A DNA stretch of 64,000 bases from Methylobacterium sp. EM32 (GCF_040593685.1 NZ_JBEXZS010000136.1:1-64000); one strand, 5' to 3'; numbered from the stretch's first letter, positions 8,759 through 45,714 are shown. Notes: generated by a model not told the origin, from the letters alone. Made by a program: numbers and translations.

Positions 8759-8779
8759 ACACCTCGATCGTCATCCCGG

Positions 8780-8959: not shown

Positions 8960-9099
8960 CGATGAGCCTCGCGCCGCGGACCGGAAACGGCCGGGGGCGC
9001 GGCCCGCCCCGGCCTCGAGCCCGGGCGAGGGCGGTGCGCCGCCGCTCCCGCCCGGGATGTCACGTCATGGCGTCCCTGCGCGAGGATCTCCCGCCCGGA

Positions 9100-9675: not shown

Positions 9676-9762
9676 GTCGCCCTCTCTCCGAAGCTGCATC
9701 CGAAGCATCGCCCGATCGTTTTCGCGATCGGACACTGATCCGGGTCCCTGATCACGGTGGTC

Positions 9763-10123: not shown

Positions 10124-10930
10124 ATGAACACTGTCCCCGTCCGTGGCACCACTGCGGTGACCGCCGGCACCCGGCGCTGGCTGCCGCACGCGAACGGCGC
10201 GACCTCGTGCGACCTGCGGTTGATCTGCCTGCCCTATGCGGGCGGCGGCGCCTCGGTCTTCGCGCCCCTGCGCCGGCACGCCCCGGACTGGCTCGACGTG
10301 CTCCCGGTGCAGCTGCCCGGCCGGGAGAACCGGATGGCCGAGGCCGCGATCGCCGCGATGCCGACCCTCGTCGACGCCCTGACGGAGGCGCTGGCGCCGG
10401 TGCTGGACCAGCCCTACGCCCTGCTCGGCTACTCGGTCGGCGCCCGGGTCGCGTTCTGCCTGACGCAGGCGCTGGCGCGGGCTGGCCTGCCCCCGCCCCG
10501 GCTCGTGATGGTGGCGGCCCACCGCGCCCCGGACCTGCCGGCCCGCGGCCCGGCGCTCCACACCCTGCCCTCCGCGGAGTTCTGGGACCGGCTCGCCCGC
10601 TACGAGGGCACGCCCGCGGCGATCCTCGACAACCCGGAATTCCGCGCCCTGTTCGAGGCGCCCCTGCGGGCGGATTTCGCCCTGGCCGAGACGCCGCTCG
10701 ACGGCGCCGGCCAGCGGCTGCCCTGCCCGGTCGCCGCCTTCGCCGGAAGCCGGGACGCCCTGGTCTCGCCGGCCGACATCGCCGGCTGGGCCCGCGCGAC
10801 CTCGGCCGGCTTCGACTGCACCACGATCGCGGGCGGCCACTTCTTCCTGCGCGACGCGGCAGAGGAATTTCGCGCGGCGGTCTACGACCGCCTCGCGCCC
10901 CTTGCCCGCCGGGCCCGGCACGCCGCCTGA
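10124..10930 (+). CDS. Type II (editing) thioesterase
   Basis: 268 aa. CLPYAGGGASVFAPL and GYSVGARVAF (GxSxG) are typical of alpha/beta-hydrolase TEII proteins associated with NRPS/PKS clusters. Confidence 0.85.
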   Translation: MNTVPVRGTTAVTAGTRRWLPHANGATSCDLRLICLPYAGGGASVFAPLRRHAPDWLDVLPVQLPGRENRMAEAAIAAMPTLVDALTEALAPVLDQPYALLGYSVGARVAFCLTQALARAGLPPPRLVMVAAHRAPDLPARGPALHTLPSAEFWDRLARYEGTPAAILDNPEFRALFEAPLRADFALAETPLDGAGQRLPCPVAAFAGSRDALVSPADIAGWARATSAGFDCTTIAGGHFFLRDAAEEFRAAVYDRLAPLARRARHAA

Positions 10931-13900: not shown

Positions 13901-14458
13901 GTTGAGGCCCGGCTTGTTGCGCGACGGGCCTATCAGGTAGTCCGGGATGCCGCTCGTCATGCCGAGCAGGTTGCGCACCGTGATCGTGTTGCCGCCCGGG
14001 ATGGCGAGGTCGCCGACCCACTTGTTGATCGGGTCGTTGAGCCCGACGACGCCCTGGTCGACCTGGCCCAGCACCACGGTGCCGGTGAACGACTTCGAGG
14101 CGCTGCCGATGCGGAACTGCATGTCGGCGGTGAGCGGCTGGGTGCGGGCGGCGTCGGCGAAGCCGGCCGCGCCGGTCCAGGCCTGGCTGCCGCCGGCGAG
14201 GCTCACCCCGACGGCGATGCCCTGGGGCTGGCCCTGCGAGAGCGTGGCGTCGAGGAGCCCCTGCACCACGCCGCCGACCTTGGCGATGTCGACCTGGGCG
14301 ATGTTGATCTGGGCGATGTCGGCGGCGAGCGCCCTCCCGGGCGACAGGGCCGCGCCGGCGGGCCACAGGGCCGCCGCCATCCCCAGCCGTGCCGCGCACA
14401 CGAATTTGCCGCGGGGAGACCTGCCCCCCTGGAACCTGACCGCCTGCCGAGCCGACAT
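10967..14458 (-). CDS. Autotransporter: S12/beta-lactamase-fold serine hydrolase (family VIII esterase/peptidase-like) passenger, beta-helical stalk and C-terminal beta-barrel
   Basis: Signal-peptide-like N-terminus. Hydrolase motifs SASK (SxxK), YSN (YxN) and HSG. A long Gly/Thr/Ala-rich repeat region follows. The C-terminal translocator ends ...LGGLRWRF (aromatic terminus). The start is ambiguous among M1, M6 and M32. Confidence 0.8.
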   Translation of the reverse strand: MSARQAVRFQGGRSPRGKFVCAARLGMAAALWPAGAALSPGRALAADIAQINIAQVDIAKVGGVVQGLLDATLSQGQPQGIAVGVSLAGGSQAWTGAAGFADAARTQPLTADMQFRIGSASKSFTGTVVLGQVDQGVVGLNDPINKWVGDLAIPGGNTITVRNLLGMTSGIPDYLIGPSRNKPGLNVLQEWANFTSPAGPYGSAAYTPEQLVAAATQLTPKPIGQMNYSNTNFVVLGLIAQRASCLTPTGCRSIETLIDGMVGGIGLSKTTFPTGTGYTARFPQTVQNVFADTTTYNVPYGSRFDMTYVDPRVPWSAGAVLSSPADELRWVRQLATNNLGLLAPATQAQRVGDTTYGSVAGIPAHYGLAIYSMPSVGTGAWLLGHSGLIGGDTASLFYNRDLDAAYAINFVGYQSLAQPWFPLYGATAAFGPYVYPNANKQAGDFSSVVVLWALDRNVTLALTTQGSCSFGAAPTGGVCSGDNVRTTPLDVAGTGLTIQPSNRLIGGVVIGANNTTAPTAFVRPSLATFGSDIAAVALKGSANLTLQQGAGLEIWGARSAGVAMTGVGNRAEIAGTVATLGSSSVGVRIEGSLNTLDIRPTGTVNGANGPAITLAGTGNQALVAGTVTTIGTVLNDGTTIDKVAIRGSGFANRVEVQPGGTVSGDIVMGGAANAVRVDGTVVGSVGMAGTAMTLSGTGRVVGRVGGGGTVMPGNSIGPLSVGSYLGQDTALVIETAADGRSDRLAVAGAANLAGGTLQVVPVRGFGGIHTAVTAGAVQGGFDAVTTGSRTGAGVRYSPVAVEVATANPFQTDAAARTGAADSLRTLDLLERRANAFRTDSAFGPPAGAGAIGTPASPESGGSESLKTWLSQRGPLAAGSRATGAAVWASAYGHVSRFNADGPVPGIASSGGGVMVGADAELAPHLIAGVMGAFSRNAAQASPGGYASRLDTDAYKLAAYGAVEVGPAVISAFGLAGRGDLASLRPTAFAGMAGFARGRLDDTRFAGRLSALTTLQAGEVRLMPRAAVTLLRVEQSPYTEQGLPASYASTIGRTRFALARPELSLALGRTVAVSLGGWSGLLDAEIRAGIGRDLVLEAPDAQVRIPGFTPLAVRGFARDAFVVPVGARAELQVADALAVFADYEGAFSRLGTDNTVLGGLRWRF

Positions 14459-14630
14459 TCTGTGCCCCCGCACGTTCCGTCACGCTATCGATCGAGCGCC
14501 CGGCTCCGGCGCCTGGCCGGGAGTCACGGGCGTTGCGGGAAGCCGGTGCTCCGGCGTCCCGCAGAGAAAACTGCACGCTTTCCGGCAAGCGGGGGCTCTC
14601 CAGAGAGAACCTCTTTGGAGTGAGGCGCGG

Positions 14631-14822: not shown

Positions 14823-16457
14823 CTACTCCGCCATCACCGAAGCAGTCCTGACCACGTCAAGCCGGCCATTCTTCATGTCGACATGGATATCTGCCAAGTC
14901 GAAATACGCGTCGTCATGCGTGATTGCGATCACGGTTATTCCACGACCCTTGAGGAATGGCAAGACGACGCGGTAGAATTTCTCGCGAAAATGCGGATCC
15001 TGGTCGGCAGCCCATTCGTCGAACACGCAGATCGGGCGTTTCTCCAGGAGAGACCCGATCAGCGCCAGGCGTTTGCGCTGTCCACCCGACAACTTCGTGA
15101 CGGTGAAGCGTCCATTCTCCAACTTCGACTTGTGCTGCATTTCGAGAAGTGCGAACAATTCGTCGGCAAGCGCAGCATCGATCTCCTGGATGCCGTAGAG
15201 CTCGGAGAAGAGGTGGTTGTCCGAGAAGATGACCGAGAACAGGTTGCGGTAATCGGCCAGGGTGGCGGCGGTGACGGGGGTGCCGTCGACCCGGATGACG
15301 CCGCTGCTCGCCGGGTAGAGGCCGATCAGCATGCGGATGAAGGTGGTCTTGCCCGAGCCGTTGCCGCCGGTGAGGAACAGGGTGACGCCGCGCTCGACCG
15401 TGAGGTCGACCGGCCCGACCCGGAAGCCGCTCTCGCCCCCGGCGGCGTGGTGGGAGAAGGTCGCCCCATCGAGGACGATGCGGCGGAACCCGGCGAAGCG
15501 CCCGGCCACCGGCGCGGGCCCGGCCCCGGCCTCGCCGAGCCGCGCCTCCATCCGGGTGATGTTCTCGGCGGCCGCGTTGGCGTTGGCGAAGATCGGCAGG
15601 CTGCCGACCACGTTCGAGACCGGGCCGATCAGGAACAGGCTCGCGGTCGTGGTCATCACCACCACCTCGACATGGGCCTGGCTGACGTTCGGCACCACGA
15701 ACACCATGATCCCGGTGAGGATGAAGAACGTCACCTGCGAGGTCACGAAGTCGGTGGCGTAGGCGGTCTGGGTGCCGATCCGCATCCGCGTCACCTCGGC
15801 CGAGATGCGGGCGATCCGGGCCGCGATGGCGTCGGAGCGCTCCGTGCTCATCTTCACTTCCTTGAAGCCGTCGAGCATGTCGCTCAGGCCCTCGATCAGG
15901 TCGTTCTCGCGCTCGAAGGCGGCGCGCAGCTGGCGCTTCACCTCGCCGCTGCGCGAGAGGTGGATCATCGCGCCGAGCAGCGTGAAGCCGGACGAGAGCA
16001 GGAAGGCGGTCTGCGACAGGGCCGCCATGTAGACGAGCGTGAACCCGACCAGGATAGCCGACTGGACCGCGATGACGACGTTGGGCGCCGCCTGCGACAG
16101 GATCTGCGTCTCGCGGGTGAGGCAGGCATAGATCTCGGACCGGCCGACCTCGTCGAGGTCGAGGTATTCGGCCCGCCGGGCGCGCTCGACGAGGCGCGTG
16201 CGCATCCGGTCGATCAGCCGCTCGACCTTGTCGCAGACCTCGACCATCAGCGTGCGCTGGGTGACGACGAAGATCGCGATGGCGAGGCCGAACAGGACCA
16301 GGTTGCGGAAGTTGTCGGCCTGGTTCTGGACGTTGGCGGCCGCGACGTTGATGATGGCGAGCACGCCCGCATTGGACAGGCCCGAGAGCGCCGCCAGCAC
16401 CAGGAAGCGCGGACCGTCGACGCCCGCCTCCCGGCGGAAGAGGTCGAGCACCTTCAT
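14823..16457 (-). CDS. ABC transporter, fused permease/ATPase, cyclic-peptide exporter family (SyrD/PvdE-like)
   Basis: ORF 14823..16670. The real start is ATG 16457 (MKVLDLFRREAGV), overlapping the NRPS stop as ATGA. It has six TM helices, then Walker A GGNGSGKTT, signature LSGGQRKRLAL and Walker B ICVFDE. Confidence 0.85.
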   Translation of the reverse strand: MKVLDLFRREAGVDGPRFLVLAALSGLSNAGVLAIINVAAANVQNQADNFRNLVLFGLAIAIFVVTQRTLMVEVCDKVERLIDRMRTRLVERARRAEYLDLDEVGRSEIYACLTRETQILSQAAPNVVIAVQSAILVGFTLVYMAALSQTAFLLSSGFTLLGAMIHLSRSGEVKRQLRAAFERENDLIEGLSDMLDGFKEVKMSTERSDAIAARIARISAEVTRMRIGTQTAYATDFVTSQVTFFILTGIMVFVVPNVSQAHVEVVVMTTTASLFLIGPVSNVVGSLPIFANANAAAENITRMEARLGEAGAGPAPVAGRFAGFRRIVLDGATFSHHAAGGESGFRVGPVDLTVERGVTLFLTGGNGSGKTTFIRMLIGLYPASSGVIRVDGTPVTAATLADYRNLFSVIFSDNHLFSELYGIQEIDAALADELFALLEMQHKSKLENGRFTVTKLSGGQRKRLALIGSLLEKRPICVFDEWAADQDPHFREKFYRVVLPFLKGRGITVIAITHDDAYFDLADIHVDMKNGRLDVVRTASVMAE

Positions 16458-19400
16458 TCGGCGAGCAGCCGGTCGAGATCGTCGAGGGACAGCCCCTCGA
16501 AGGTCAGGTCGGAGGGCGTCACCTCCGCCTCCCCCCGCGAGAGGCAATGGGCGACCACCGCCTCGATCGCGTCCCGGTAGGCGGACAGCAGCGCCTGCGC
16601 CTCCTCGCGGGAGGTCCGGGCGCCGTCGAGATCGAGGCCGACCTCCATCTCGCCGTCGACCACCAGGCACAGCACGTCGGTGTGGTGGGGCCGCACGGCC
16701 TCGGGGTCGAGGGCGCCGCCGGGGGCGTCCCAGTCGACCGCGAACCGGCCGCCGCGCCGCGCCTCCGCCCCCATCTGCCCGAGATAGTTGAAGCTCACGC
16801 CCGGCCGCAGCCGCGGCGCGTCGGGCAGCGCCTGCATCGGGAGCCAGGTGAAGCCGTGGTCGGGCACGCGCCGGCGCCCGTCCTTGGCGGTGCGGATCGT
16901 GTCGGCGAGGTCGGCGCAGGCGTGCAGCTCCAGCGGGTGGAACATCGTGAACCAGCCGACCGTCCGGCCGGTGGCCGGGGCGCTCTCACCGAGCAGGTCC
17001 GCCGGGCGGTACTCGCGCCCGTGGCCCTCCAGCGTCACCAGGGTGCGGCGGGTGCCGGAATGCCGCTCCAGCGCGACCGCGAGGGCGGCGAGCAGCAGGT
17101 CCTCCGGGCCGGTGCCGTAGGCCCGGTTCGCCTCGGCCACGAGCGCGGCGGTCAGGTCCCGCGGCAGCCGCGCCCGCACCGAGAGCGCGTCGCCAACCCG
17201 GGCCGGGGGCGCTTCCGAGGCGGAATCGGGCGCGACCTGGCGCCAGGTGCGCAGGCGGCTCGTCCAGTCGATGGTGTCCGCGATCGTCGCCAGGGCCGCG
17301 GCGTGGTCGCGATAGGAATGGGTCTTCTCTGGCAGGCGCGGCGCGGCGCCGGAAAGCGCCGCCTCGTAGGCCGATTCGAGATCCTCCAGGAGGATGCCCC
17401 ACGAGACCGCGTCGACGACGAGGTGATGGGCGACGAGGAGCAGGCGGTGGCGCGCGCCGGTGCGGTCGAGGAGGGCGGCGAGGAGCGGCGTCCCGTCGAG
17501 GTCGAACCCGGCCTGGAGCCTGGAGGCCGCCGCCGCGAAGGCGGCCTCGCCACCAAGCGCCTCCCTGTCATGTGCGGGCAGCTCGGCGAGGCGGGGCGGA
17601 TCCCCGGGTGCCCGGAAGACCTGGCGCCAGCCCTCCGCCTCCTTGGTGAAGCGGGCCCGCAGGGCGTCGTGGTGGCGCCAGACCTCCGCCAGGGCGATTC
17701 CCATCGCCGCCGGGTCGATGTGGTCGGCGCGCAGCACCACCGCCTGGTTGAAGTGGCGCGGGCGCTCGGACGTCTCCAGGAACCAGCGCTGGATCGGGGT
17801 CAGCGGCACCGCGCCGACCACCGGCCCCTGATCGGCCCGGACCACGACCGGGCGCAGCACCGCGGCGAACTGCTCGGCGGTCGGGTTCTGGAACACGTCG
17901 CGGATCTCGCTCCGCCAGCCCTCCTGCCGCAGGCGCGACACGATCTGGATGGCGCGGATCGAATCGCCGCCGAGGCCGAAGAAGTCGTCCTGGACGCCGA
18001 TGTCCCGGCGCTCCATCACCTCGCCCCAGACCCGCAGGACCAGGGATTCGAGGGCCGTCTGCGGCGCGCGGCCTTCCGCCGGCGCGACCATCCCCGGGGC
18101 CGGCAGCGCCGCGCGGTCGACCTTGCCGTTGAGGGTGACGGGCATCCGCTCCAGCGGCACCAGGAAGGCCGGCACCGCGTAGGCCGGCAGCACCGTCAGC
18201 AGGTGCCGGCGCAACGCCACCGGCGAGGGGGTCTCGAAGCGCGGGATGCCATCGCCGGAAAAGAGCCCGTCATAGAACGGCGTCTGCCGGAAGCCGCCGC
18301 CGAAATGCGCGCTGAGGTAGCGGAACGGAACCGCCTCGCCGCATTCCCGCACGACGCGTCCGTCGAGGGCGAAATCGGCGTTGAGGCCGTTGCCGCACAG
18401 TCGCCGGTCGATCGACATCGCGATCCGGTCGCCTTCCCGCACCGCCACCGGCAGGTCGAAGACGGGGAGATAGACGGGCAGCCAGCTGCCGGGATTGTCG
18501 AGGATGTCGACCACCGCGTCCGCGTCGACGCCGAGCCGCAGCCAGACCAGGAAGCCGGTGAGGTCGCAGTCGCGCGTCACCGTGAGGGCGACGTCGTGGC
18601 GTTCCTCCAGCGGCACCTCCCTCGTGTAATCGAGGTACTCGAACACCCCGTCGTCGGAGACGATCGCCTCCCGCGGCAGGTTCTTCAGGCACAGGCGCAG
18701 GTCGAAGGGCTGGCCGACCTCGGCGAAGATCTTTTCCACGTAATGCGCCGCGACGTCGCTGAATCCGGGGGCGAGGCGGTCGCGCGGCAGCGACAGGGCG
18801 GCGATGCAGGTGTCGCTGAAGCGCGGCAGCATCGCCGCCGGATCCTTGAGGAAGCGGCGGGCGCCGTTGATGATCCGCGCCGCGCCCTCGGCGCCGCCGA
18901 TCGCCCCGACGATCTCCGAGATGCAGGCATCGACGGGTTCCGGCAGCGCCAGGGTGAGCGCGTCGCCGTGGATGACCTCGATCCGGTCCGACAGGCCGAG
19001 CCGCGCCACGGTCTCCCGCGCCTTGCGGGCGGTCGCCTCCAGGCGGTCGACGGCGTAGACCTTGCGCGCCCCGGCCTCGATCGCGAGCCGGGCCAGGATC
19101 ACCACCGGGCCGGTGCCGATATCGATCACGGTCTTGCCCGGCAGGTGGCGGGCGAAGGCCTCGCGGTAGCGCTGGTTGCGGCCCTCGTCGGCCGCCATGC
19201 TGCCATAGGCGACGTCGTCGTAGACGTAGAACTCGGCCACCGAGGGCCACAGCTCGACCGGCGCGTCGGCGCAGTAATAGGCGGCGAGCGCCGTCGATCC
19301 CTCCGGACGCGCGACCGGGGTGACGAGCGCGTCGCGCAGGCCCGGCACCCGGCGCAAAGCCGCCTCGACCTCGCCGATCTCGATGCGGTGGCCCGAGACC

Positions 19401-22400
19401 TTCACCTGCTCGTCGCTGCGGCCGAGGCAGTCGATCGTGCCGTCCGCGTTCCAGGCGGCGCGGTCGCCGGTGCGGTAGAGCCGCTCGCCGGTCTCCGGAT
19501 GGGTGATGAAAAGCTCGGCCGTGCGCTCCGGGTCGCCCTGGTAGCCGATGGCGAGGCCGCCGCCGCCGAGATGGAGTTCGCCCGGCACGCCCACCGGCAC
19601 CGGCGCCAGGGCGGCATCGAGGATGTGGGCGGTGGTGTTCGGCAGCGGCCGGCCGATCGGCAGCCGGGCCCGGCCGGCCTCCGCCGCACCCACCCGGTGG
19701 ATCGTCGCGCAGACCGAGGCCTCGGTCGGCCCATAGGCGTTGAAGGCGGCGAGATGGCCGGCATAGTGGCAGAGATCGGCCACCGGCGCCGCCTCGCCGG
19801 CGGTGATGAGGACCCGCAGGCCCGGCAGCGCGGCCCGCTCCAGGGCGCGCAGGTAGGTCGGCGGCAGGGTGACGACGCTGACGGAGAGCCGGCGCATCAG
19901 CGCGCGCAACGCCCCCGTCTCCTCGATCGCCGCGCGCGTCGGCAGCACGAGCGCCGCCCCGGCGAGGAGCGCCATAAAGATGTTGGCGAGCGAGGCGTCG
20001 AAGGACGGCGAGGCGAATTGCAGGACGCGGTCCTGCGGCCCGATGCCGAAGGCGGCGACTTGCGCCCGCGCCATCGTCACGAAGCCCGCATGGGCGACGA
20101 CGACCGCCTTCGGCGTGCCCGTCGAGCCGGAGGTGAAGATGACGTAGGCCGGATCTTCGGGGGCAGGATCTTGCGGCCGGCTCGCGTCGAGGGGCTCGGC
20201 CGTCCCGTCGTCTCCGACGAGCCAGGGCGCCACCGCCTCGACCGGGCGCCCGCCGGCGAGCGCGGCGGCGGCCGGATCGGCGCGGTCCTGCAGGACGAGC
20301 CGGCACCCGGCCCGCTCCAGCATCTCGCGCACGCGGGATTCCGGATAGGCCGGATCGACCGGCACGTAGACGCCGCCGGCCGTCATCACCGCGAGGAGCG
20401 CGAGGACGGATTCGGCGCTGCGCTCGGCCAGCACCGCCACCCGGTCGCCGGGAGCGAGGCCGTGGGCCGCGACGAGGTGCCGGCCGAGCCGGTCGGCGGC
20501 CTGGCCGAGGGCGCGGTAGCTCGTGCTCCGCCCCTCGGCGTCGATCAGCGCCGGCCGGTCGGGGTGCAGGCGCACCGCCTCGGCGAAGGCCGCCACGATG
20601 GTGGTGGCCGGGCGCGGGTCGCGTGGGCCCTGCGCGAAGGCCGCCACCGTCGCGGCCTCCTCGGGCGAGAGCAGGTTCAGCCGACCGAGCGGCCAGTCCG
20701 CATCCTCGATCGCGGCCCGGGCGAGCTCGCCGAAATGCCCACCCATGCGGGCGATGCGGTCGGCATCGAACAGGTCGGTGTTGTAGTTGAGGTCGAGGAG
20801 GAGAGCGCCCTCCTCCTCCTGGACGTGGAAGACGAGGTCGAAGCGGCTGAAGGTCCAGGCGTTCTGCCGGCCGAACGGGACGACCGACACGCCGTCCAGG
20901 GAGAGGTCGGTGTCGGTGAAGCCCTGCGGCACCACCATCACGTCGAAAAGGGCCGAGCGGCTCATGTCGCGTTCGAGCGCGAGGTCCTGGGCGAGATCCT
21001 GCACCAGGGCATCGAACGGGTAGGCCTGGTGGGCGAGGCCGTCGCGCAAGGTCGCGGTGACCTGGCCTAAGAGGTCGGCGAAGGAGTTTTCGGGCGACAC
21101 CCTGTCGCGTAGCGCCAGGGTGTCGACGTAATAGCCGATCTGGTCGGCCAAAGCCGGATGGGTGCGGCCGGCGACCGGGCTGCCGACCACGAGGTCGGTC
21201 TGGCCGCTATAGCGGTGCAGGAGCGCCTTGGTCAGGGCGATCAGGAGCGCGGCGCGGGTGCTGCCCTGGCGCCGGGCGAGGTCGTCGAGGCCGCGCGACA
21301 GCGCGACCGGCAGGGAAAAGCGCTGCGTCGTACCGGCGAAGGTCTGGACCGGCGGGCGCGGCCGGTCGGTCGGCAGGGCGAGGGGCGCCACGGGCTCGGC
21401 GAAACGCTCGCGCCAATAGGCGCGGTCGGCCTCGAGCTGCCCGTCCGCGAGGCGCGCGGCCTGCCAGGTCGTGGCGTCGCGCAGCTGGAGCGGCAGCGGC
21501 GCGAGGTCGGGTGCCCTCCCCTGCCGGCGCGCGGCGTAAGACGCGGCGAGGTCGCGCACCAGCACGCCGAGGGACCAGACATCGGCGACGATGTGGTGGA
21601 TGGTGAACAGGAGGAGGTGGCGCTCCGCTCCGTCCGCGTCGGGCAGGCGGGCGAGGACGACCCGCATCAAGGGCCCGCTTCGCAGATCGAAACGGTGGCC
21701 GGCCTCCCCGGCGGCGAGGGAATCCGCCGCGGAATCCGGGGCGTCCCGCAGGTCGCGCCGCTCCAGGATCCAGTGTGGCACCGGATGCACGATCTGGCGG
21801 GCGGTCCCGTCAGGTTCCTCGTCGAAGGTGGTGCGCAGGGCCTCGTGCCGGGCGACGAGGTCGCGGAAGGCCGCCTCCAGGGCATCTGGATCGAGGGGCC
21901 CGCGCAGTTCCAGCGCCTCGCCGAGGTTGTAGGCGGTCGGCGCCACGCCGAGCCGGTCGAGGCGCCACAGCCGTCCTTGCACCGGGCTGACCGGATAGCT
22001 CGCGGCCTCCGGCGCGAGGGGGATCGCCTCTCCTTCCGGCCGCGCCGCCGCGATCAGCCGGCCGAGCGCCCGGATCGTCTGGGCGGCGAAGAAGTCCTTC
22101 AGGCTGACCTCGACCGAAAAGGCCTGGTAGATCCGCTGCACCGCCCGGATCGCCCGCAGGCTGTCGCCGCCGAATTCGTGGAAGCCGGTCTCGGCCCCGA
22201 CCTGCGATAAGCCGAAGATCTCGCGCCAGATCGCCGCCAGCCCCTCCTCGGTCTCGCCCTCGGGAGCGACGTAGGAATGCTGGGCGTAGAACAGCTCCTC
22301 CGGCCGCGGCAGGGCGCGGCGGTTGAGCTTGCCGCTCACGGTGGTGGGTAGGTCCTTGAGCGGCACCAGCACACGCGGCCGGGTCGCCGCCGGCAGCGTC

Positions 22401-23830
22401 TCGGCGAGGGCGAGGCGGATCGCCTCCAGGTCGAGCACCGTCCCGGCTTCGGCCGGGACGACGTAGCCGACGAGCACCGGCAGGTCGCCGGCGCCCGTGT
22501 GCACGGCGGCCGCCGCCTTGCCGACACCCGGCACCTCGCGCAAGCCGGCCTCGACCTCGCCGAGCTCGATGCGCACGCCGCCGATCTTGACCTGGTTGTC
22601 CTGGCGCCCGAGGCATTCCACCGTGCCGTCCGGCAGGAGGCGGCCCATATCGCCGGTGCGGTAGATCAGGTCGGCCGGATCGTCCCCGAGGGGATTCGGC
22701 ACGAAGGCGGCCCGCGTCGCCTCCGGGTCGCCGAGATAGCCGAGCGACGGATAGGCAGTCCTGATGTGGATCTCGCCGATCTGCTGGGGCGCGCAAGCGC
22801 GGCCGTTGGCGAGCACCAGGATGCTGGTATCGGGCAGGGGCCGGCCGATCGGCAGCACCCGGCGCGGATCCGTGATCGGACCGACGCGGGAGAAGACCTT
22901 GGCGAGGGTCGTCTCCGAGGGGCCGTAGAGGTTGACGACCTCGGCTCCCTCCCCGGCTGCCTCGCGCCAGGCCAGCACATCGGCGCCGATGAGCGGCTCG
23001 CCGGCGACCAGGAGGTGGCGCAGGGCCGGGAAGGCGCGGGTTCCGCCGCGATCGGCCAGCTCGCGGGTGATCAGGCGCAGGACTGTGGGCACGCAATGGA
23101 CCAGGGTGACCGCCTCCCGGGCGAGCCAGTCGACCAGCCGGCGCGGCACCATGCGGGTCTCGGGGTCGGGAATGCAGAGCGTGCCGCCGACCATCAGCGG
23201 GACTAGGATGTCGCGCAGGCTGACGTCGAAGGTGATCGGGGCGAGCCAGGAGCCGCGGGTGGTCGAATCGAGGGCGAATTCCCCGGTCTCCCAGCGCAGG
23301 AAATGCGCGAGGCTGCGATGGGGCCCGAGGATCGCCTTCGGCTCGCCGGTCGAGCCGGAGGTGAACATCACGGAGCAGGGATCGGCCGGGCCGATGCGGC
23401 GGGCAACCGGCGGCATCGCGTCGAGCGCCGGCAGATCCTCGATCCCGATCACCTCGACCGGGTCGGCGCCGGCGAGCGCCGCCTCCAGGGCGGGGCGGTG
23501 GGCCCGGTCCGTCACGACGACCCGGCAGGCGGCCTTGGCGAGGCAGGTGCGCAGCCGCCGCGGCGGCAGGTCCGGCGGCAGCGGCAGGAAGGCGGCCCCC
23601 GCCTTGCCGACACCCAGCAGCGCCTGGACGTAATCGGCGCCCGCTTCCAGGAACAGGCCGGCGACGGCGCCGCGGCCGAGGCCGCTCGCGGCGAGGCGGC
23701 GGGCCAGCCGCTCGGCGCCGCGGTCGAGCTCGTCGTAGCGGGTCCAGCCGCCGTTCCAGGACAGGGCCGCGGCCCCGGGCCGGAGCGACGCCTGAAGCTC
23801 GAACTGATCGACGAAGGAGCCGCGCTGCAT
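16454..23830 (-). CDS. NRPS, two modules: A-T-C-A(embedded methyltransferase)-T-C
   Basis: Part of the 3094-aa ORF, whose Arg-rich N-terminal 600 aa is an out-of-frame overlap with the asnB-like gene. The start is ATG 23830 (MQRGSFVDQ) or GTG 23878. A1 motifs FTSGSTGEPKA and NLYGPSETT. T1 FHEFGGDSLRAI. C domain HHIVADVWS. A2 FTSGSTGTPKA and NAYGPTEAS. A SAM-MT insert sits between A8 and A9, with VIDIGTGPVVILARLAIEAGARKVYAVD at ~19101-19130. T2 FFGLGGDSIRAI. C-terminal C domain HHLVVDAVSWG. Confidence 0.9.
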   Translation of the reverse strand: MQRGSFVDQFELQASLRPGAAALSWNGGWTRYDELDRGAERLARRLAASGLGRGAVAGLFLEAGADYVQALLGVGKAGAAFLPLPPDLPPRRLRTCLAKAACRVVVTDRAHRPALEAALAGADPVEVIGIEDLPALDAMPPVARRIGPADPCSVMFTSGSTGEPKAILGPHRSLAHFLRWETGEFALDSTTRGSWLAPITFDVSLRDILVPLMVGGTLCIPDPETRMVPRRLVDWLAREAVTLVHCVPTVLRLITRELADRGGTRAFPALRHLLVAGEPLIGADVLAWREAAGEGAEVVNLYGPSETTLAKVFSRVGPITDPRRVLPIGRPLPDTSILVLANGRACAPQQIGEIHIRTAYPSLGYLGDPEATRAAFVPNPLGDDPADLIYRTGDMGRLLPDGTVECLGRQDNQVKIGGVRIELGEVEAGLREVPGVGKAAAAVHTGAGDLPVLVGYVVPAEAGTVLDLEAIRLALAETLPAATRPRVLVPLKDLPTTVSGKLNRRALPRPEELFYAQHSYVAPEGETEEGLAAIWREIFGLSQVGAETGFHEFGGDSLRAIRAVQRIYQAFSVEVSLKDFFAAQTIRALGRLIAAARPEGEAIPLAPEAASYPVSPVQGRLWRLDRLGVAPTAYNLGEALELRGPLDPDALEAAFRDLVARHEALRTTFDEEPDGTARQIVHPVPHWILERRDLRDAPDSAADSLAAGEAGHRFDLRSGPLMRVVLARLPDADGAERHLLLFTIHHIVADVWSLGVLVRDLAASYAARRQGRAPDLAPLPLQLRDATTWQAARLADGQLEADRAYWRERFAEPVAPLALPTDRPRPPVQTFAGTTQRFSLPVALSRGLDDLARRQGSTRAALLIALTKALLHRYSGQTDLVVGSPVAGRTHPALADQIGYYVDTLALRDRVSPENSFADLLGQVTATLRDGLAHQAYPFDALVQDLAQDLALERDMSRSALFDVMVVPQGFTDTDLSLDGVSVVPFGRQNAWTFSRFDLVFHVQEEEGALLLDLNYNTDLFDADRIARMGGHFGELARAAIEDADWPLGRLNLLSPEEAATVAAFAQGPRDPRPATTIVAAFAEAVRLHPDRPALIDAEGRSTSYRALGQAADRLGRHLVAAHGLAPGDRVAVLAERSAESVLALLAVMTAGGVYVPVDPAYPESRVREMLERAGCRLVLQDRADPAAAALAGGRPVEAVAPWLVGDDGTAEPLDASRPQDPAPEDPAYVIFTSGSTGTPKAVVVAHAGFVTMARAQVAAFGIGPQDRVLQFASPSFDASLANIFMALLAGAALVLPTRAAIEETGALRALMRRLSVSVVTLPPTYLRALERAALPGLRVLITAGEAAPVADLCHYAGHLAAFNAYGPTEASVCATIHRVGAAEAGRARLPIGRPLPNTTAHILDAALAPVPVGVPGELHLGGGGLAIGYQGDPERTAELFITHPETGERLYRTGDRAAWNADGTIDCLGRSDEQVKVSGHRIEIGEVEAALRRVPGLRDALVTPVARPEGSTALAAYYCADAPVELWPSVAEFYVYDDVAYGSMAADEGRNQRYREAFARHLPGKTVIDIGTGPVVILARLAIEAGARKVYAVDRLEATARKARETVARLGLSDRIEVIHGDALTLALPEPVDACISEIVGAIGGAEGAARIINGARRFLKDPAAMLPRFSDTCIAALSLPRDRLAPGFSDVAAHYVEKIFAEVGQPFDLRLCLKNLPREAIVSDDGVFEYLDYTREVPLEERHDVALTVTRDCDLTGFLVWLRLGVDADAVVDILDNPGSWLPVYLPVFDLPVAVREGDRIAMSIDRRLCGNGLNADFALDGRVVRECGEAVPFRYLSAHFGGGFRQTPFYDGLFSGDGIPRFETPSPVALRRHLLTVLPAYAVPAFLVPLERMPVTLNGKVDRAALPAPGMVAPAEGRAPQTALESLVLRVWGEVMERRDIGVQDDFFGLGGDSIRAIQIVSRLRQEGWRSEIRDVFQNPTAEQFAAVLRPVVVRADQGPVVGAVPLTPIQRWFLETSERPRHFNQAVVLRADHIDPAAMGIALAEVWRHHDALRARFTKEAEGWRQVFRAPGDPPRLAELPAHDREALGGEAAFAAAASRLQAGFDLDGTPLLAALLDRTGARHRLLLVAHHLVVDAVSWGILLEDLESAYEAALSGAAPRLPEKTHSYRDHAAALATIADTIDWTSRLRTWRQVAPDSASEAPPARVGDALSVRARLPRDLTAALVAEANRAYGTGPEDLLLAALAVALERHSGTRRTLVTLEGHGREYRPADLLGESAPATGRTVGWFTMFHPLELHACADLADTIRTAKDGRRRVPDHGFTWLPMQALPDAPRLRPGVSFNYLGQMGAEARRGGRFAVDWDAPGGALDPEAVRPHHTDVLCLVVDGEMEVGLDLDGARTSREEAQALLSAYRDAIEAVVAHCLSRGEAEVTPSDLTFEGLSLDDLDRLLAE
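18280..19160 (-). other. Embedded SAM-dependent methyltransferase domain (class-I, PRMT-like motif I) interrupting A domain 2 of the NRPS
   Basis: Motif I VIDIGTGPVV and post-I YAVD lie between the A8 (VKVSGHRIEIGEVE) and A9/A10 (AVPAFLVP...LNGKVDR) motifs, the canonical insertion site for NRPS methylation domains. Confidence 0.7.
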
Positions 23831-23874
23831 GACGTGAGGGACCTTGGCGTAAGGAACCTGGGCGTGGGGGACGG

Positions 23875-25740
23875 TCACGAGAGCCTCGGAAGATCGAAAT
23901 GTTCGCGAAGGATGCCGAAGGTGAGGACCACCATCAGGACGTCGTCCTCGAAGGTCTGGTTGATCTCGGCCCCGGCGAGGAAGCGGGCCTTGAGATGCGC
24001 CACCGCCCCGGCGTTGAAGTAGCCGTCGGCGGCGACGCGGGCCTCGTCGAGGAGGTCGTGGATTCGGGGCAGGCCGGCACGCAGCAGGGTGGCGCTGCTC
24101 TGGGCGACGAAGCTGAACTTGCGCCGCTCGACGATCGCCGCCGGCAGGTAGCGCCGGGCCAGCGCCTTGAGGACGAATTTCTCCTCCCCCCGCTGCACCA
24201 TCAGCTGCGGCGGGATGCGCCGGGCGACGTCGATGACGTCGAGGTCGAGGAAGGGGTAGCGCGCCTCGACCGAGTTGGCGAAGGAGACCCGGTCGCCGTG
24301 ATCGGCGAGCAGGTGGTCGGCCATCCGCAGCTTGAAGTCGAGATAGGAGCGGATGTGGAACGGGTGGCGCCCCTCGATCCGCGCGCGGTCGACCAGGGGC
24401 TGCTCCAGGCAGTCGAACCCGTCGAAGGCTTCCGCCAGGGCGGGCGCGTAGAGTTCGCGGCGGATCTCGCGGCTCTCCGAGTAGCTCTTCTCGTAGAGGA
24501 AGCGCGAATCGCCCCACAGCCGCCCGCGCAGCTCCGCCTCGATCAGGGCGTCGAGGTCGCCCGAATCGTCCTCTGCGTCCCGCTCCAGGTCGAGGCGGTA
24601 GCCGACATAGCCGCCGAACAATTCGTCCGCGCCCTCGCCGGTCAGCACGACCTTCAGGCCCTCCTCCCGCACCATGCCGGAGAGCGCGAGGGAGCAGACG
24701 TTGTAGGATTCGCGCAACGGCGCCTCGGCGCAGTGGACGATCCGGTCGAGGCCGGCGGCGAGGCGGGCGGGGTCGATCTCGCGCTCGTGGTGGATCGTCC
24801 CGAGGCGGCGCGCCATCAGGCGCTGCGGCTCGCGCTCGTCGATCGCCCGGTCCGGGAAGGTGATCGAGAAGGTGTGGCGAGGCGCCCCCGGCTCGAGGTC
24901 GGCCGCGATGGCGGCGATGAGCGAGCTGTCGAGGCCGCCGCTGAGATAGGCGGCGACCGGCACGTCGGCCTGGAGGCGGCGGCGCACCGCTTGGCGCAGG
25001 GCGGCGTCGAGTTCGTCGACATGGTCCTCCAGGCGGCGGGCGGGGGCGATGTCCTCGGCGCGGGGAAAGTCGAGGTCCCAGTACGGCTCGACCCGCAGCG
25101 GCCGGCCCGGATCGGCGATCAGCACGTGGCCCGGCGGCAGGCTCCTGACGCCGGCCAGGATGGTGCGCGGGCTCACCAGACCCGGGAAGGTGAGGATCTG
25201 GTCGAGGGCCGTGAGGTCGACCGCCCGGGACAGGCCGGGATGGCAGAGCAGCGCCCGGATCTCGGAGGCGAAGAGCAGCGCGCCGCCGATCTCGGCGTAG
25301 AACAGCGGCGCGATGCCGACATGGTCGCGCCCGAGCACCAGCCGCCGGGTGGTGCGGTCGTAGGCCGCGAAGGCGAACTGGCCGTTGACCCGGCGCGGGA
25401 AGTCCGGGCCGTGGGCGATGAGCAGCGCCGGCACCACCTCGGTGTCGCATTGCGTGACGAAGCGGTGGCCGGCGGATTCGAGATCCGCCCGCAGCTCGCG
25501 AAAATTGTAGATCTCGCCGTTGCAGACCGCGACCGCCCGGCCGTCGCCGGCGAACATCGGCTGCTGCCCGTGGGCGAGGTCGACGATCGACAGGCGGCGG
25601 AAGCCCAGCGCGATGCCGTCCTCGGCGAAGAAGCCGTCGTCGTCCGGGCCGCGGTGGCGGACGCTCTCCGCCATCCGGCGGATCAGCGCGGGGTCCGGGC
25701 GTGCGCCGGTGCGATCGAGAAGGCCGACGATGCCGCACAT
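23875..25740 (-). CDS. Asparagine synthetase (glutamine-hydrolysing)-like amidotransferase, AsnB family
   Basis: ORF 23875..25782. The real start MCGIVGLL gives the N-terminal Cys nucleophile of class-II glutamine amidotransferases. The synthetase domain carries the PP-loop SGGLDSS. It lies between the two megasynthase genes, with 4-bp and GTGA spacings. Confidence 0.85.
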   Translation of the reverse strand: MCGIVGLLDRTGARPDPALIRRMAESVRHRGPDDDGFFAEDGIALGFRRLSIVDLAHGQQPMFAGDGRAVAVCNGEIYNFRELRADLESAGHRFVTQCDTEVVPALLIAHGPDFPRRVNGQFAFAAYDRTTRRLVLGRDHVGIAPLFYAEIGGALLFASEIRALLCHPGLSRAVDLTALDQILTFPGLVSPRTILAGVRSLPPGHVLIADPGRPLRVEPYWDLDFPRAEDIAPARRLEDHVDELDAALRQAVRRRLQADVPVAAYLSGGLDSSLIAAIAADLEPGAPRHTFSITFPDRAIDEREPQRLMARRLGTIHHEREIDPARLAAGLDRIVHCAEAPLRESYNVCSLALSGMVREEGLKVVLTGEGADELFGGYVGYRLDLERDAEDDSGDLDALIEAELRGRLWGDSRFLYEKSYSESREIRRELYAPALAEAFDGFDCLEQPLVDRARIEGRHPFHIRSYLDFKLRMADHLLADHGDRVSFANSVEARYPFLDLDVIDVARRIPPQLMVQRGEEKFVLKALARRYLPAAIVERRKFSFVAQSSATLLRAGLPRIHDLLDEARVAADGYFNAGAVAHLKARFLAGAEINQTFEDDVLMVVLTFGILREHFDLPRLS

Positions 25741-25744
25741 CGGC

Positions 25745-40240
<14,496 letters not shown>

Positions 40241-40339
40241 GCGTCCGCCCCGGCATTTCTGCTGATCTGATGTTTGCTCGATAGAAATCTCGTCACGAGA
40301 CGTCAAGCGAGATTTTAAAATACACGTCGCCCTTGACAC

Positions 40340-44274: not shown

Positions 44275-44338
44275 GGGCGTCTCCGGGCCCGGGGCCCTCG
44301 TGGTATCTCGGTGGTTGTCGGGGTGGCTGACGGTACTG

Positions 44339-44500: not shown

Positions 44501-44545
44501 GGAGCCGTCGCGGCCGACGACTGTCGCTCGTGCTGAAAACAGCTC

Positions 44546-45685: not shown

Positions 45686-45714
45686 GTGAACTCCTGTGCG
45701 CCGGCGCTGGCTCT

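What the first reader, a model, noticed from the sequence alone, without database searches (positions are those of the whole stretch)
16454..25745. Both megasynthases terminate in a C domain; AsnB-like amidotransferase wedged between them
The 4864-aa protein ends ...C (HHIVADGWS) and the next NRPS starts directly with A-T. The terminal C presumably acts in trans on the A-T of the next protein, a split-module junction at a gene boundary. The second NRPS also ends with a C domain (HHLVVDAVSWG), yet no downstream A-T follows before the exporter. That terminal C may release the chain onto a free amine or hydroxyl, or may macrocyclise, like fungal CT domains. The class-II glutamine amidotransferase with a Cys1 nucleophile (MCGIV) sits exactly at the junction. 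It is the type of enzyme used for beta-lactam or amide formation (BLS/CarA/TblS) or Asn/Gln side-chain amidation in NRPS pathways.
Basis: partly seen in the sequence, partly recalled or inferred. Interest (0 to 1): 0.55.

Follow-up and report, generated by a model that had tools for sequence, protein, structure and literature searches.

The report
Lipopeptide assembly line with embedded amidotransferase
This is an uncharacterised but ordinary three-protein lipopeptide synthetase whose second protein ends in an epimerase rather than a releasing condensation domain, and the gene wedged between the first two proteins is a specialised amidotransferase that probably turns a side-chain-linked aspartate into an isoasparagine residue.

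Summary
NRPS1 (25745-40339, minus strand) ends in a normal LCL condensation domain. NRPS2 begins with A-T, so the split module at the gene boundary is real. This arrangement is already known from iturin and microcystin synthetases.

The terminal "C" of NRPS2 (HHLVVDAVSWG) is an epimerization domain. It matches solved E domains at 1e-49 to 1e-65, against 1e-10 or worse for C domains, and it has the E motifs. Its partner, a DCL-type C-A(Asp)-T-TE protein (2862-6794), lies 9.6 kb downstream and is conserved in related clusters. No unusual release chemistry is needed.

The AsnB-like gene (23875-25740) is real and is translationally coupled to both neighbouring genes. It keeps the Cys1 glutaminase site and the PP-loop. 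It is neither a housekeeping AsnB nor BLS-like.

It belongs to a clade (100/100 bootstraps) found next to carrier-protein pathways. Where enough flanking DNA is available, most of these carry an A domain with Lys or Arg at pocket position 239. Here that domain has the code DVRHLALLAK, 9/10 identical to Zmn16-A1, which installs side-chain-linked Asp.

Best model (inferred, not shown): the enzyme amidates the free alpha-carboxylate of that iso-Asp residue.

The parts
25745..40339 (-). NRPS1, a 4864-aa hybrid: FAAL-ACP-KS-AT-ACP-aminotransferase-C1-[degenerate A remnant]-T-C2-C3-A(Thr, DFWNVGMVHK)-T-C4
   Evidence: Pfam; domain mapping by phmmer; motifs; specificity code
25826..27133 (-). C4, the terminal condensation domain of NRPS1. 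LCL-type, with HHIVADGWS at residue 4530 and the N-terminal motif SFAQRRMWLL. It is the upstream half of the split module
23875..25740 (-). AsnB-like glutamine-dependent amidotransferase, 621 aa, starting MCGIV. The ATG lies 4 nt after the NRPS1 stop, and its TGA overlaps the GTG at 23878 of NRPS2
16454..23878 (-). NRPS2: A1(DVRHLALLAK)-T(GGDSL)-C(LCL, HHIVADVWS)-A2(DAATIAAVCK, with an inserted PRMT-like methyltransferase)-T(GGDSI)-E. The start is GTG 23878 or ATG 23830
22328..23770 (-). A1 adenylation domain, code DVRHLALLAK with Arg239/His278. The code is identical in all orthologous clusters and 9/10 identical to Zmn16-A1 (DPRHLALLAK), which installs side-chain-linked Asp
16457..17830 (-). 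Its COM-donor-like tail is TPSDLTFEGLSLDDLDRLLAE
14823..16457 (-). Cyclic-peptide-type ABC exporter (TIGR01194, above cut-off). Its start overlaps the NRPS2 stop
10967..14473 (-). S12 (beta-lactamase-fold) D-peptidase/amidase-like passenger fused to an autotransporter beta-domain. It is conserved in related clusters
10124..10930 (+). Free-standing type II thioesterase
7304..9735 (-). DUF697 protein (9100-9735), a 59-aa membrane peptide (8780-8959) and a Band7/SPFH protein (7304-8758). This trio is conserved directly upstream of NRPS3
2862..6794 (-). NRPS3, the terminating module: DCL-type C (DIYPLTPFQEGLVFH, HHLLMDGWC)-A(Asp, DLTKLGHICK)-T-TE. The likely start is ATG 6794; the mechanical ORF starts at 7001

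Best explanation
The region is the middle of one colinear hybrid PKS-NRPS line for a beta-amino-fatty-acid lipopeptide, carried on three synthetase genes.

Assembly line:
- NRPS1 builds a 3-amino fatty acyl starter (FAAL-ACP-KS-AT-ACP-aminotransferase) and adds at least Thr.
- NRPS1 ends in a standard LCL condensation domain. That domain works in trans on the A1-T pair at the N-terminus of NRPS2. This split module follows from the domain order.
- NRPS2 adds the A1 residue and an aromatic residue that is probably methylated. It ends in an epimerization domain. This domain call is shown by homology and motifs.
- The D-configured peptidyl chain passes, through a COM-like tail, to the DCL-type C domain of NRPS3. 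NRPS3 adds Asp, and its TE domain releases or cyclises the product. This handover is inferred from domain types and conserved co-occurrence.

Amidotransferase (inferred):
- The gene between NRPS1 and NRPS2 encodes a glutamine-hydrolysing, ATP-dependent AsnB-like amidotransferase. It belongs to a clade dedicated to carrier-protein pathways.
- A1 loads aspartate through its side-chain carboxyl, as Zmn16-A1 does in prezeamine. This gives an iso-Asp residue with a free alpha-carboxylate.
- The AsnB-like enzyme adenylates that free carboxylate and amidates it with glutamine-derived ammonia, giving an isoasparagine residue. AsnH does the same to beta-linked D-Asp in peptidoglycan.
- Whether it acts on Asp-S-T1, on the growing chain or on the released peptide is not known.
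For: E domain, not C:
- phmmer against PDB gives BacC, TycB, PvdL, TycA and GrsA E domains at 2.7e-65 to 5.8e-49. The best true C-type hits are 2e-10 or worse.
- Within the window, the domain finds only a weak partial match to the internal C domain of NRPS2 and none to the other C domains.
- The E motifs are visible in the sequence, and the T domain before it has the GGDSI signature.

Partner module:
- The NRPS3 C domain begins DIYPLTPFQEGLVFH and has HHLLMDGWC, which is the DCL type. Its A domain has the Asp code DLTKLGHICK, and it ends in a TE.
- NRPS3 orthologues sit on the same contigs as AsnB orthologues.
- The block Bla-autotransporter/DUF697/small ORF/Band7/NRPS3 stays next to the NRPS1-AsnB-NRPS2 operon in Azospirillum TSH100, even though the block is rearranged there.

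Split module:
- C4 is LCL-type. The junction is conserved in relatives of 66-96% identity.

Amidotransferase:
- It has the Pfam domains GATase_6/7 and Asn_synthase.
- C1, R49, N74, G75, E76, D98, SGGLDSS, E348, D351, E352, K429 and K449 are all conserved.
- It scores below the cut-off of the AsnB equivalog (303 against 499 bits).
- About 100 aa are inserted where AsnB has residues 358-388. The positions that align with D384 and R387 are Leu and His.
- Every homologue of 45-96% identity that was examined lies in an NRPS/PKS cluster.
- In an NJ tree of 91 relatives, the NRPS-associated and Dlt-like-associated members form one clade in 100/100 bootstraps. Members with no adenylation gene nearby fall outside it.

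Link to A1:
- The code DVRHLALLA is invariant downstream of the gene in Limnohabitans, Azospirillum, Endothiovibrio, the Rhizobiales MAG and the JGI contigs.
- DARH codes accompany the gene in three actinomycete plasmids, two of them with an Asp/Glu racemase.
- DAK codes accompany it in 8 of 10 Firmicutes Dlt-like operons, where a 9th locus has only a truncated A domain.

Literature:
- Zmn16-A1 has the code DPRHLALLAK (PMC3547906). The residue it installs was shown by NMR to be side-chain-linked aspartate (PMC5811116).
- FclI, with DPRHVSLLAK, is listed as Asp (PMC12283262 Table S15).
- A change at Lys239 switches a Glu domain towards Gln (PMC11355689).
- AsnH amidates peptide-embedded D-Asp rather than free Asp (PMC3885529).
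Against: - There is no biochemical or product data for this cluster.
- The substrate of A1 is inferred from a 9/10 code match.
- Zmn16 and FclI work without any AsnB-like partner, so this A-domain type does not require one.
- In five clade loci (L002, L007, L087, L088, L089) no Lys/Arg239 A domain was seen within the available flanks. Those flanks are incomplete, so this says little either way.
- The Asp added by NRPS3 and the C-terminal carboxylate are alternative substrates.
Its numbering was self-consistent and it matched the printed PDB alignment. It also relies on my recollection of which AsnB residues bind aspartate.
- The tree is neighbour-joining only, and the position of TsnB9 is unresolved (sister in 6/100 replicates).
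- NRPS1 holds an A-less module and tandem C domains that this model does not explain.
Confidence: 0.6

Rival explanations
1. The AsnB-like enzyme amidates a different carboxylate of the finished or nearly finished peptide. Candidates are the beta-carboxylate of the Asp added by NRPS3, or the C-terminal carboxylate after TE hydrolysis. This would be late-stage tailoring, like TsrC, DdaH or TsnB9.
For: NRPS3 has a canonical Asp code, DLTKLGHICK. The best solved relative, TsnB9, acts on a free pathway acid. Several clade loci show no Lys/Arg239 A domain in the available flank.
Against: The Limnohabitans cluster and three actinomycete clusters keep the gene directly beside a DxRH A-T pair, with no NRPS3-type module in view. 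In the Firmicutes operons the only carboxylate donor is the DltA-like/carrier pair. A TE-containing terminal module would more usually cyclise the peptide than leave a free C-terminus.
Confidence: 0.2
2. The enzyme is a pathway-dedicated precursor supplier. It makes free Asn, D-Asn, isoasparagine or another amide amino acid, which an A domain then loads.
For: It passes the broad TIGR01536 'asparagine synthase (glutamine-hydrolyzing)' cut-off, 442 against 267 bits. Public annotation calls the whole clade asnB. Asp/Glu racemases sit beside it in some clusters.
Against: No A domain in the window has an Asn or Gln code. The partner A domains carry a cationic residue at position 239, which marks acid-binding rather than amide-binding pockets. 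The score is below the AsnB equivalog cut-off, and the 358-388 region is replaced. The related AsnH does not use free Asp.
Confidence: 0.1
3. The enzyme acts like BLS, CarA or TblS and closes a beta-lactam, for instance on the 3-amino fatty acid.
For: The pathway does make a beta-amino acid through the aminotransferase domain. A beta-lactamase-fold protein recurs in the cluster.
Against: From established knowledge, BLS and CarA lack the Cys1 glutaminase nucleophile. This protein keeps the complete glutaminase site and Glu348. Similarity to BLS (1e-13) and CarA (8e-4) is far weaker than to AsnB and TsnB9. The beta-lactamase-fold protein resembles D-peptidases, and its autotransporter domain would place it at the cell surface.
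Confidence: 0.03
4. The last domain of NRPS2 is a terminal C domain that releases the chain onto a free amine or hydroxyl, or macrocyclises it like a fungal CT domain.
For: The HHxxxD motif is intact. An exporter gene follows immediately.
Against: The domain is an E domain by homology and by all seven E motifs, and the T domain before it is the E-type GGDSI form. A conserved DCL-C-A-T-TE partner exists.
Confidence: 0.03

Closest known systems
Iturin/mycosubtilin synthetases (MycA-MycB) and microcystin McyE
   Same: They use a fatty-acid or polyketide starter that is extended once and transaminated by an in-line aminotransferase domain to a beta-amino acyl thioester. The first protein ends in a C domain whose A-T partner starts the next protein. 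McyE also pairs the beta-amino acid with a side-chain-linked acidic residue. This is established knowledge recalled from memory.
   Different: Here the first NRPS module has lost its A-domain core, and two C domains stand in tandem. An amidotransferase gene is inserted at the split-module boundary. Neither the iturin nor the microcystin cluster has an AsnB-like gene, and the acidic residues of microcystin keep their free alpha-carboxylates.
E-domain to DCL handover between separate NRPS proteins (GrsA-GrsB, TycA-TycB) with COM domains
   Same: The upstream protein ends in T(GGDSI)-E with an acidic C-terminal tail (TPSD...LDDLDRLL). The downstream protein starts with a short leader and then D(I/M)YPL(T/S)PxQEG.
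   Different: The partner gene lies 9.6 kb away, behind exporter, peptidase and membrane-protein genes, instead of being adjacent. COM pairing was judged by eye only.
Zmn16 / FclI loading modules (zeamine, fabclavine)
   Same: The specificity code DPRHLALLAK (Zmn16) is 9/10 identical to A1 (DVRHLALLAK). Both are N-terminal A-T pairs without their own C domain. Zmn16 installs side-chain-linked aspartate.
   Different: In prezeamine the residue is the free N-terminus, its alpha-carboxylate stays free, and no AsnB-like enzyme was reported in the two zeamine papers consulted. Here the residue is internal, acylated through C4, and is paired with the amidotransferase.
AsnB-like amidotransferases that act on substrates other than free Asp: AsnH/LtsA (peptidoglycan), TsnB9, OxyD, DdaH, TsrC
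   Same: They share the two-domain class-II GATase plus PP-loop synthetase and a glutamine-dependent conversion of a pathway carboxylate to an amide. AsnH amidates the alpha-carboxylate of beta-linked D-Asp in a peptide. TsnB9 is the best solved relative.
   Different: This protein belongs to a distinct clade (100/100) that is tied to carrier-protein adenylation systems. No member has been characterised, as far as the libraries searched show. TsnB9 transfers hydroxylamine rather than ammonia.
Housekeeping asparagine synthetase B
   Same: All glutaminase residues, the PP-loop and E348, K429 and K449 are retained. It passes the broad TIGR01536 model.
   Different: It falls below the AsnB equivalog cut-off. 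It has a ~100-aa insertion in place of residues 358-388, which include D384 and R387. It sits in a biosynthetic operon and is separated from E. coli AsnB by a long branch.

Membership tests
NRPS epimerization (E) domain | Closer in sequence to solved E domains than to C domains | tested here: met
   E domains of BacC, TycB, PvdL, TycA and GrsA score 1e-49 to 1e-65. The best C-type hits are 2e-10 or worse.
NRPS epimerization (E) domain | Core motifs E1-E7: PIQxWF, HHxxxDxxSW, DxLLxAxG, EGHGRE, RTVGWFT, FNYLG | tested here: met
   PIQRWF, HHLVVDAVSWG, EDLLLAAL, EGHGRE, RTVGWFT and FNYLGQ can be read in the translation. The motif definitions are from memory (Marahiel core motifs).
NRPS epimerization (E) domain | Preceded by an E-type T domain (GGDSI) and followed in the line by a DCL-type C domain | tested here: met
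   T2 has GGDSI. The NRPS3 C domain has DIYPLTPFQEGLVFH and HHLLMDGWC. NRPS3 is conserved with the cluster.
NRPS epimerization (E) domain | Epimerase activity on the T-bound peptide | not testable with these tools
   This needs an assay or the stereochemistry of the product.
Terminal releasing / macrocyclising C domain (fungal CT-like, or amine-capturing) | A C-family domain at the true end of the assembly line, with no downstream module or TE | tested here: not met
   The domain is an E domain. A C-A-T-TE module follows in the pathway.
Split NRPS module (C at the end of one protein, A-T at the start of the next) | The upstream protein ends in a catalytically intact C domain and the downstream protein begins with A-T and has no C of its own | tested here: met
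   C4 has HHIVADGWS. NRPS2 begins with an A domain at residue ~21. The junction is conserved in four relatives.
Housekeeping asparagine synthetase B (NCBIfam NF006949) | Score above the equivalog cut-off | tested here: not met
   303.5 bits against a cut-off of 499. The broad TIGR01536 model is passed, 441.7 against 267.1.
Housekeeping asparagine synthetase B (NCBIfam NF006949) | Aspartate-binding region around K376, D384 and R387 | tested here: inconclusive
   The region is replaced by a ~100-aa insertion. A right-anchored alignment puts Leu and His at positions 384 and 387. The role of these residues and the reference sequence come from memory.
Beta-lactam synthetase / carbapenam synthetase (BLS, CarA) | Loss of the N-terminal Cys nucleophile, so the enzyme is glutamine-independent and cyclises intramolecularly | tested here: not met
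   Cys1 and R49, N74, G75, E76 and D98 are all retained. Matches are weak: BLS 1.3e-13, CarA 7.9e-4.
Tailoring AsnB-like amidotransferases of secondary metabolism and the cell wall | Intact GATase and PP-loop synthetase domains, encoded inside a biosynthetic cluster | tested here: met
   context
Tailoring AsnB-like amidotransferases of secondary metabolism and the cell wall | Amidates a pathway intermediate rather than free Asp | not testable with these tools
   Only indirect support is available: clade-wide association with acid-type A domains and the AsnH precedent.

The most novel reading that the evidence does not exclude
The AsnB-like enzyme works on the carrier protein. The A domain loads aspartate through its side-chain carboxyl onto T1, and the amidotransferase converts the tethered beta-aspartyl thioester to an isoasparaginyl thioester before condensation. 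This 'load the acid, amidate it on the carrier' logic would be analogous to Asp-tRNA(Asn) amidation by GatCAB. It would be shared by NRPS lines in Proteobacteria and Actinobacteria and by Dlt-like cell-envelope operons of gut Firmicutes. In the Firmicutes operons the carrier-bound stage is the only cytoplasmic intermediate after adenylation.
Probability: 0.25. Interest if true: 0.65.

Novelty: new member of a known kind. Interest (0 to 1): 0.42.

Why it matters
That prevents a false lead about new release chemistry.

Three things remain of value:
- The window holds a complete, uncharacterised family of beta-amino lipopeptide clusters. The family is spread through Azospirillum-like alphaproteobacteria, Endothiovibrio and Limnohabitans.
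- There is a well-supported clade of 'asparagine synthases' that genome pipelines annotate as asnB. Its members are in fact consistently tied to carrier-protein pathways, and mostly to acid-specific adenylation domains. This gives genome miners a marker for isoasparagine or amidated iso-Asp residues.
- It also gives enzymologists a testable candidate for in-line amidation.

Tried and rejected
- Literature search for the microcystin codes DARHVGIFVK and DPRHSGVVGK that I remembered: no hits in four attempts. They remain a recollection. The Zmn16/FclI tables replaced them as evidence.
- Reciprocal co-occurrence test, a scan of metagenome contigs with A1 to ask how often an AsnB-like gene lies nearby: only relatives of 34% identity or less came back, so the test was unusable.
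- PDB search with A1: generic A-domain hits only, with no information on specificity.
- C3 as a dehydrating or otherwise special C domain: its best hits are ordinary LCL domains from fuscachelin, teixobactin and TycC. The tandem C2-C3 is still unexplained.
- The beta-lactamase-fold protein as a ClbP-type prodrug peptidase or a SurE-type offloading cyclase: only 5e-6 and 1e-5, against 2e-20 for alkaline D-peptidase. Its autotransporter domain also implies a location at the cell surface.
- The 'terminal amidation domain' paper: this is an unrelated NAD-binding fold.
- Looking for the source organism: the exact protein occurs only on an 11.9-kb Logan contig. The flanking DNA is ~76% identical to Azospirillum plasmids.
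- AsnB as the loader of the A-less T domain: rejected, because Limnohabitans keeps the gene without that module.
- A planned NCBIfam scan of the C1, C2 and C3 pieces failed on a coordinate error and was not repeated.

Full report
**1. What is in the sequence.**

The window has about 73% G+C, so long shadow ORFs are common. Two very long minus-strand ORFs were listed: 25745-40339 (4864 aa) and 16454-25738 (3094 aa).

- Translation and third-position GC show that the first ~620 codons of the second ORF are an out-of-frame shadow over a separate gene, 23875-25740.
- That gene encodes a 621-aa protein starting MCGIV, with GATase_6/7 and Asn_synthase domains.
- Its ATG lies 4 nt after the TAG of the first synthetase. 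Its TGA overlaps a GTG at 23878, and an alternative ATG lies at 23830. Either of these opens the second synthetase.
- The stop of the second synthetase overlaps the ATG of an ABC exporter at 16457.

They form one tightly coupled operon.

**2. Domain order.**

NRPS1 reads FAAL-ACP-KS-AT-ACP-aminotransferase-C1-[A remnant]-T-C2-C3-A-T-C4.
- C4 has the LCL hallmarks SFAQRRMWLL and HHIVADGWS.

NRPS2 reads A1-T-C-A2(with an inserted methyltransferase)-T-X.

The split module C4 | A1-T is real. It is kept in relatives from a JGI metagenome (96%), a Rhizobiales MAG (74%), Endothiovibrio (67%) and Azospirillum sp. TSH100 (66%). From established knowledge, the mycosubtilin, iturin and microcystin (McyE) synthetases are built the same way, so this arrangement is not new.

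**3. The 'second terminal C' is an epimerization domain.**

- Searched against all PDB chains, domain X matches the E domains of bacitracin synthetase 3, TycB, PvdL, TycA and GrsA at 2.7e-65 to 5.8e-49. Genuine C domains start at 2e-10.
- Used as a query inside the window, it finds only a weak partial match to the internal C domain of NRPS2 (1.7e-15 over ~280 residues) and none to the other C domains.
- The translation shows PIQRWF, HHLVVDAVSWG, EGHGRE, RTVGWFT and FNYLGQ.
- The T domain in front has GGDSI, whereas the NRPS1 and NRPS3 T domains, which precede a C or TE domain, have GGHSL.

**4. The missing module exists.**

On the same strand, at 2862-7001 (real start probably ATG 6794), lies a C-A-T-TE protein.
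- Its C domain begins DIYPLTPFQEGLVFH and carries HHLLMDGWC. This is the signature of C domains that accept a D-configured donor.
- Its A domain has the Asp code DLTKLGHICK.
- The E domain ends in an acidic tail, TPSDLTFEGLSLDDLDRLLAE. This resembles the COM donor helix of GrsA and TycA, a comparison made from memory.

Orthologues of this protein (47-90% identity) sit on the same contigs as orthologues of the amidotransferase (matching contig lengths).
- In the JGI contig the order is the same as in the window.
- In Azospirillum sp. TSH100 the block [S12 peptidase-autotransporter, DUF697, small ORF, Band7, C-A-T-TE] has moved as a unit to the other side of NRPS1, and it has a TauD gene beside it.
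- Conservation through this rearrangement makes NRPS3 part of the pathway.

The line is therefore colinear and ends in a TE. Nothing calls for release by a C domain.

**5. The amidotransferase itself.**

- All glutaminase residues (C1, R49, N74, G75, E76, D98), the PP-loop SGGLDSS and E348, D351, E352, Y357, K429 and K449 are conserved in it and in 23 relatives. It was checked for numbering and against the printed PDB alignment.
- It passes the broad TIGR01536 model but not the AsnB equivalog, 303 against 499 bits.
- Its best solved relative is the hydroxyamidotransferase TsnB9 (7YLZ, 8e-55), followed by E. coli AsnB (4e-51). BLS (1e-13) and CarA (8e-4) are remote.
- Where AsnB has residues 358-388, this clade has a ~100-residue insertion ending in the invariant RSYLDFKLRMADHLLADHGDR. 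Anchored on the following VEAR, Leu and His align with D384 and R387.
- An intact glutaminase site argues against a BLS/CarA-type cyclase. From established knowledge, those enzymes have lost the Cys nucleophile.

**6. Where the clade lives.**

- Every relative of 45-96% identity that I could place is inside an NRPS or PKS-NRPS cluster: Azospirillum, Rhizobiales, Endothiovibrio, Inquilinus, Magnetospirillum molischianum, Methylobacter oryzae, Limnohabitans, SAR324, Desulfobacterales, Acidobacteriota, and Streptomyces and Kitasatospora plasmids.
- The 36-40% relatives in gut Firmicutes sit at the end of Dlt-like operons: Asp/Glu racemase, a DltA-like adenylating enzyme, a 75-aa carrier protein, an MBOAT, a 372-aa protein and then the AsnB-like gene.
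- The 29-38% relatives (L018-L080) have no adenylation gene within 10 kb.
- In an NJ tree of 91 sequences, the NRPS-associated and Dlt-associated proteins form one clade in 100 of 100 bootstrap replicates. E. coli AsnB sits on a long branch, and TsnB9 is unplaced.

The protein does not cluster with housekeeping AsnB.

**7. The partner adenylation domain.**

I extracted specificity codes by alignment to GrsA-PheA. The recalled reference returns the textbook code DAWTIAAICK.

- In the window, the codes are Thr (DFWNVGMVHK), A1 = DVRHLALLAK, A2 = DAATIAAVCK and Asp (DLTKLGHICK).
- A1's code is identical in all seven orthologous loci, including Limnohabitans, where the domain is only 50% identical overall.
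- DARH codes occur beside the gene in three actinomycete plasmids. In two of these the gene order is asnB, (Asp/Glu racemase), A-T.
- DAKH occurs in a Desulfobacteraceae MAG.
- DAK codes occur in 8 of the 10 Firmicutes loci (L008-L017). A 9th has only a truncated A domain, and L013, which has no hit, is cut about 3 kb upstream.

A cationic residue at position 239 marks acid-binding pockets. Changing Lys239 of the surfactin Glu domain shifts it towards Gln (PMC11355689).

The published code closest to A1 is DPRHLALLAK of Zmn16-A1, a 9/10 match.
- It was first predicted to be 2-aminoadipate (PMC3547906).
- NMR of prezeamine then showed that the residue is aspartate linked through its side-chain carboxyl (PMC5811116).
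- FclI, with DPRHVSLLAK, is listed as Asp (PMC12283262 Table S15).

**8. Mechanistic model.**

- Shown by sequence: an acid-type A domain of the Zmn16 kind directly follows the amidotransferase gene, and the amidotransferase has everything needed for glutamine-dependent, ATP-dependent amidation.
- Inferred: A1 thioesterifies Asp through its beta-carboxyl. C4 acylates its amine with the upstream chain. The remaining alpha-carboxylate is adenylated and amidated by the AsnB-like enzyme, giving an isoasparagine residue.
- Precedent: AsnH of Lactococcus and Lactobacillus converts beta-linked D-Asp of the peptidoglycan cross-bridge to D-iso-Asn and responds to wall fragments rather than to free Asp (PMC3885529).
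- Timing is open. In the Firmicutes operons the carrier-bound stage is the only cytoplasmic one after adenylation. That makes action on the carrier protein an attractive but unproven reading.
- Predicted product, by inference only: 3-amino-fatty acyl-(residue on the A-less T)-Thr-isoAsn-D-aromatic(methylated)-Asp, released or cyclised by the TE.

**9. What the model does not explain.**

- NRPS1 has five... more precisely, the window has five aminoacyl T domains but only four A domains. The module after the aminotransferase keeps only a degenerate C-terminal A subdomain, with no A1-A6 core and with the A10 Lys lost.
- That module is followed by two LCL-type C domains in tandem. In some relatives the protein boundary falls between the two.
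- The compact Limnohabitans cluster has no C domain at all between the aminotransferase-terminated PKS and A1-T.
- In five clade loci no Lys/Arg239 A domain was visible within the flanks held.

**10. Verdict.**

The eye-catching part, two unexplained terminal C domains, is an artefact of calling an E domain a C domain and of not looking 9.6 kb downstream.

The amidotransferase is a real member of the known class of AsnB-like tailoring enzymes, with no characterised relative in its clade. It has a specific and testable predicted role.

Noticed in passing
window 29012-33460 (-), NRPS1 residues ~2294-3776: The first NRPS module after the aminotransferase domain has lost its adenylation core. Only a degenerate C-terminal subdomain remains, with HPTGRLGRL in place of YRTGD and DGSPDR in place of NGKxDR. 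The module is followed by two LCL-type C domains in tandem (HHAISDVWS, HHALADPAS). The window has five aminoacyl T domains and four A domains. The arrangement is conserved in L081 and L084-L086. In other relatives the protein boundary falls between C2 and C3. What loads this T domain and what the extra C domain does are unknown.
   Followed up: partly
window 18131-19240 (-), inside A2 of NRPS2: The methyltransferase inserted in the A2 domain is PRMT-like, with PRMT6 as its best PDB hit at 1.6e-18. It is not one of the usual NRPS N- or O-methyltransferase types. A2's code, DAATIAAVCK, is aromatic-like, so the methyl acceptor is unclear.
   Followed up: partly
window 10967-14473 (-): A beta-lactamase-fold S12 domain is fused to an autotransporter beta-barrel. 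Its best hits are alkaline D-peptidase 4Y7P at 2e-20, a D-stereospecific S12 peptidase, R61 DD-peptidase and D-amino-acid amidase. This looks like a surface-displayed D-peptidase or amidase. PF00144 proteins recur in the related clusters, in some of them without the autotransporter. A role in self-resistance or in maturation of a peptide that contains D-residues or amides is possible.
   Followed up: partly
window 7304-9735 (-): A DUF697 protein, a 59-aa hydrophobic peptide (8780-8959) and a Band7/SPFH protein form a trio. It is conserved directly upstream of NRPS3 in L094 and L095. DUF697 and Band7 also recur beside the AsnB-like gene in distant clusters (L002, L004, L006, L087, L089). Their function in the pathway is unknown.
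   Followed up: no
L017 4066-11857 (Lachnoclostridium MAG); similar in L008-L016: Gut Firmicutes carry a Dlt-like operon: Asp/Glu racemase, a 182-aa ORF, a DltA-like enzyme (code DAKVHVLMC), a 75-aa DltC-like carrier, an MBOAT, a 372-aa protein and an AsnB-like amidotransferase of the same clade. This suggests that a cell-envelope polymer is decorated with an amidated D-Asp or D-Glu instead of D-Ala.
   Followed up: partly
L001 3287-20799 (Limnohabitans sp. 2KL-51): This is a minimal version of the cluster: FAAL-ACP-KS-AT-ACP-aminotransferase (2222 aa), the AsnB-like gene, A1(DVRH)-T-C-A2(MT)-T-E, a free thioesterase and a PPTase. No C domain is available to join the beta-amino acyl chain to the A1 residue, and no TE domain is present in cis.
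   Followed up: partly
L091 20001-26693 (Streptomyces sp. NBC_01216 plasmid); L093 12001-16408 (Kitasatospora plasmid): Actinomycete clusters keep the cassette asnB-like, A(DARH)-T and Asp/Glu racemase. In L091 the next gene fuses a PP-loop ATPase (SGGKDSS) to a C-like domain.
   Followed up: partly
window 16454-25738 (-): The mechanical 3094-aa ORF overlaps the amidotransferase gene in another frame for ~620 codons. It is a high-GC shadow ORF that would inflate the apparent size of NRPS2.
   Followed up: yes
window 42548-52019 and 56001-60000: Beyond the cluster lie opine-oxidase-like FAD enzymes, an ABC importer, a LysR regulator and a RepC replication protein (50868-52019). This fits a repABC-type plasmid or chromid of an Azospirillum-like host, with ~76% nucleotide identity to A. 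brasilense plasmids. G+C falls to 0.53-0.56 between 56 and 60 kb, against ~0.72 elsewhere, which suggests a foreign insertion.
   Followed up: no
L094 14021-14992 (Azospirillum sp. TSH100): A TauD-family dioxygenase sits next to the NRPS3 orthologue in Azospirillum but is absent from the window. The terminal Asp may be beta-hydroxylated in some family members.
   Followed up: no
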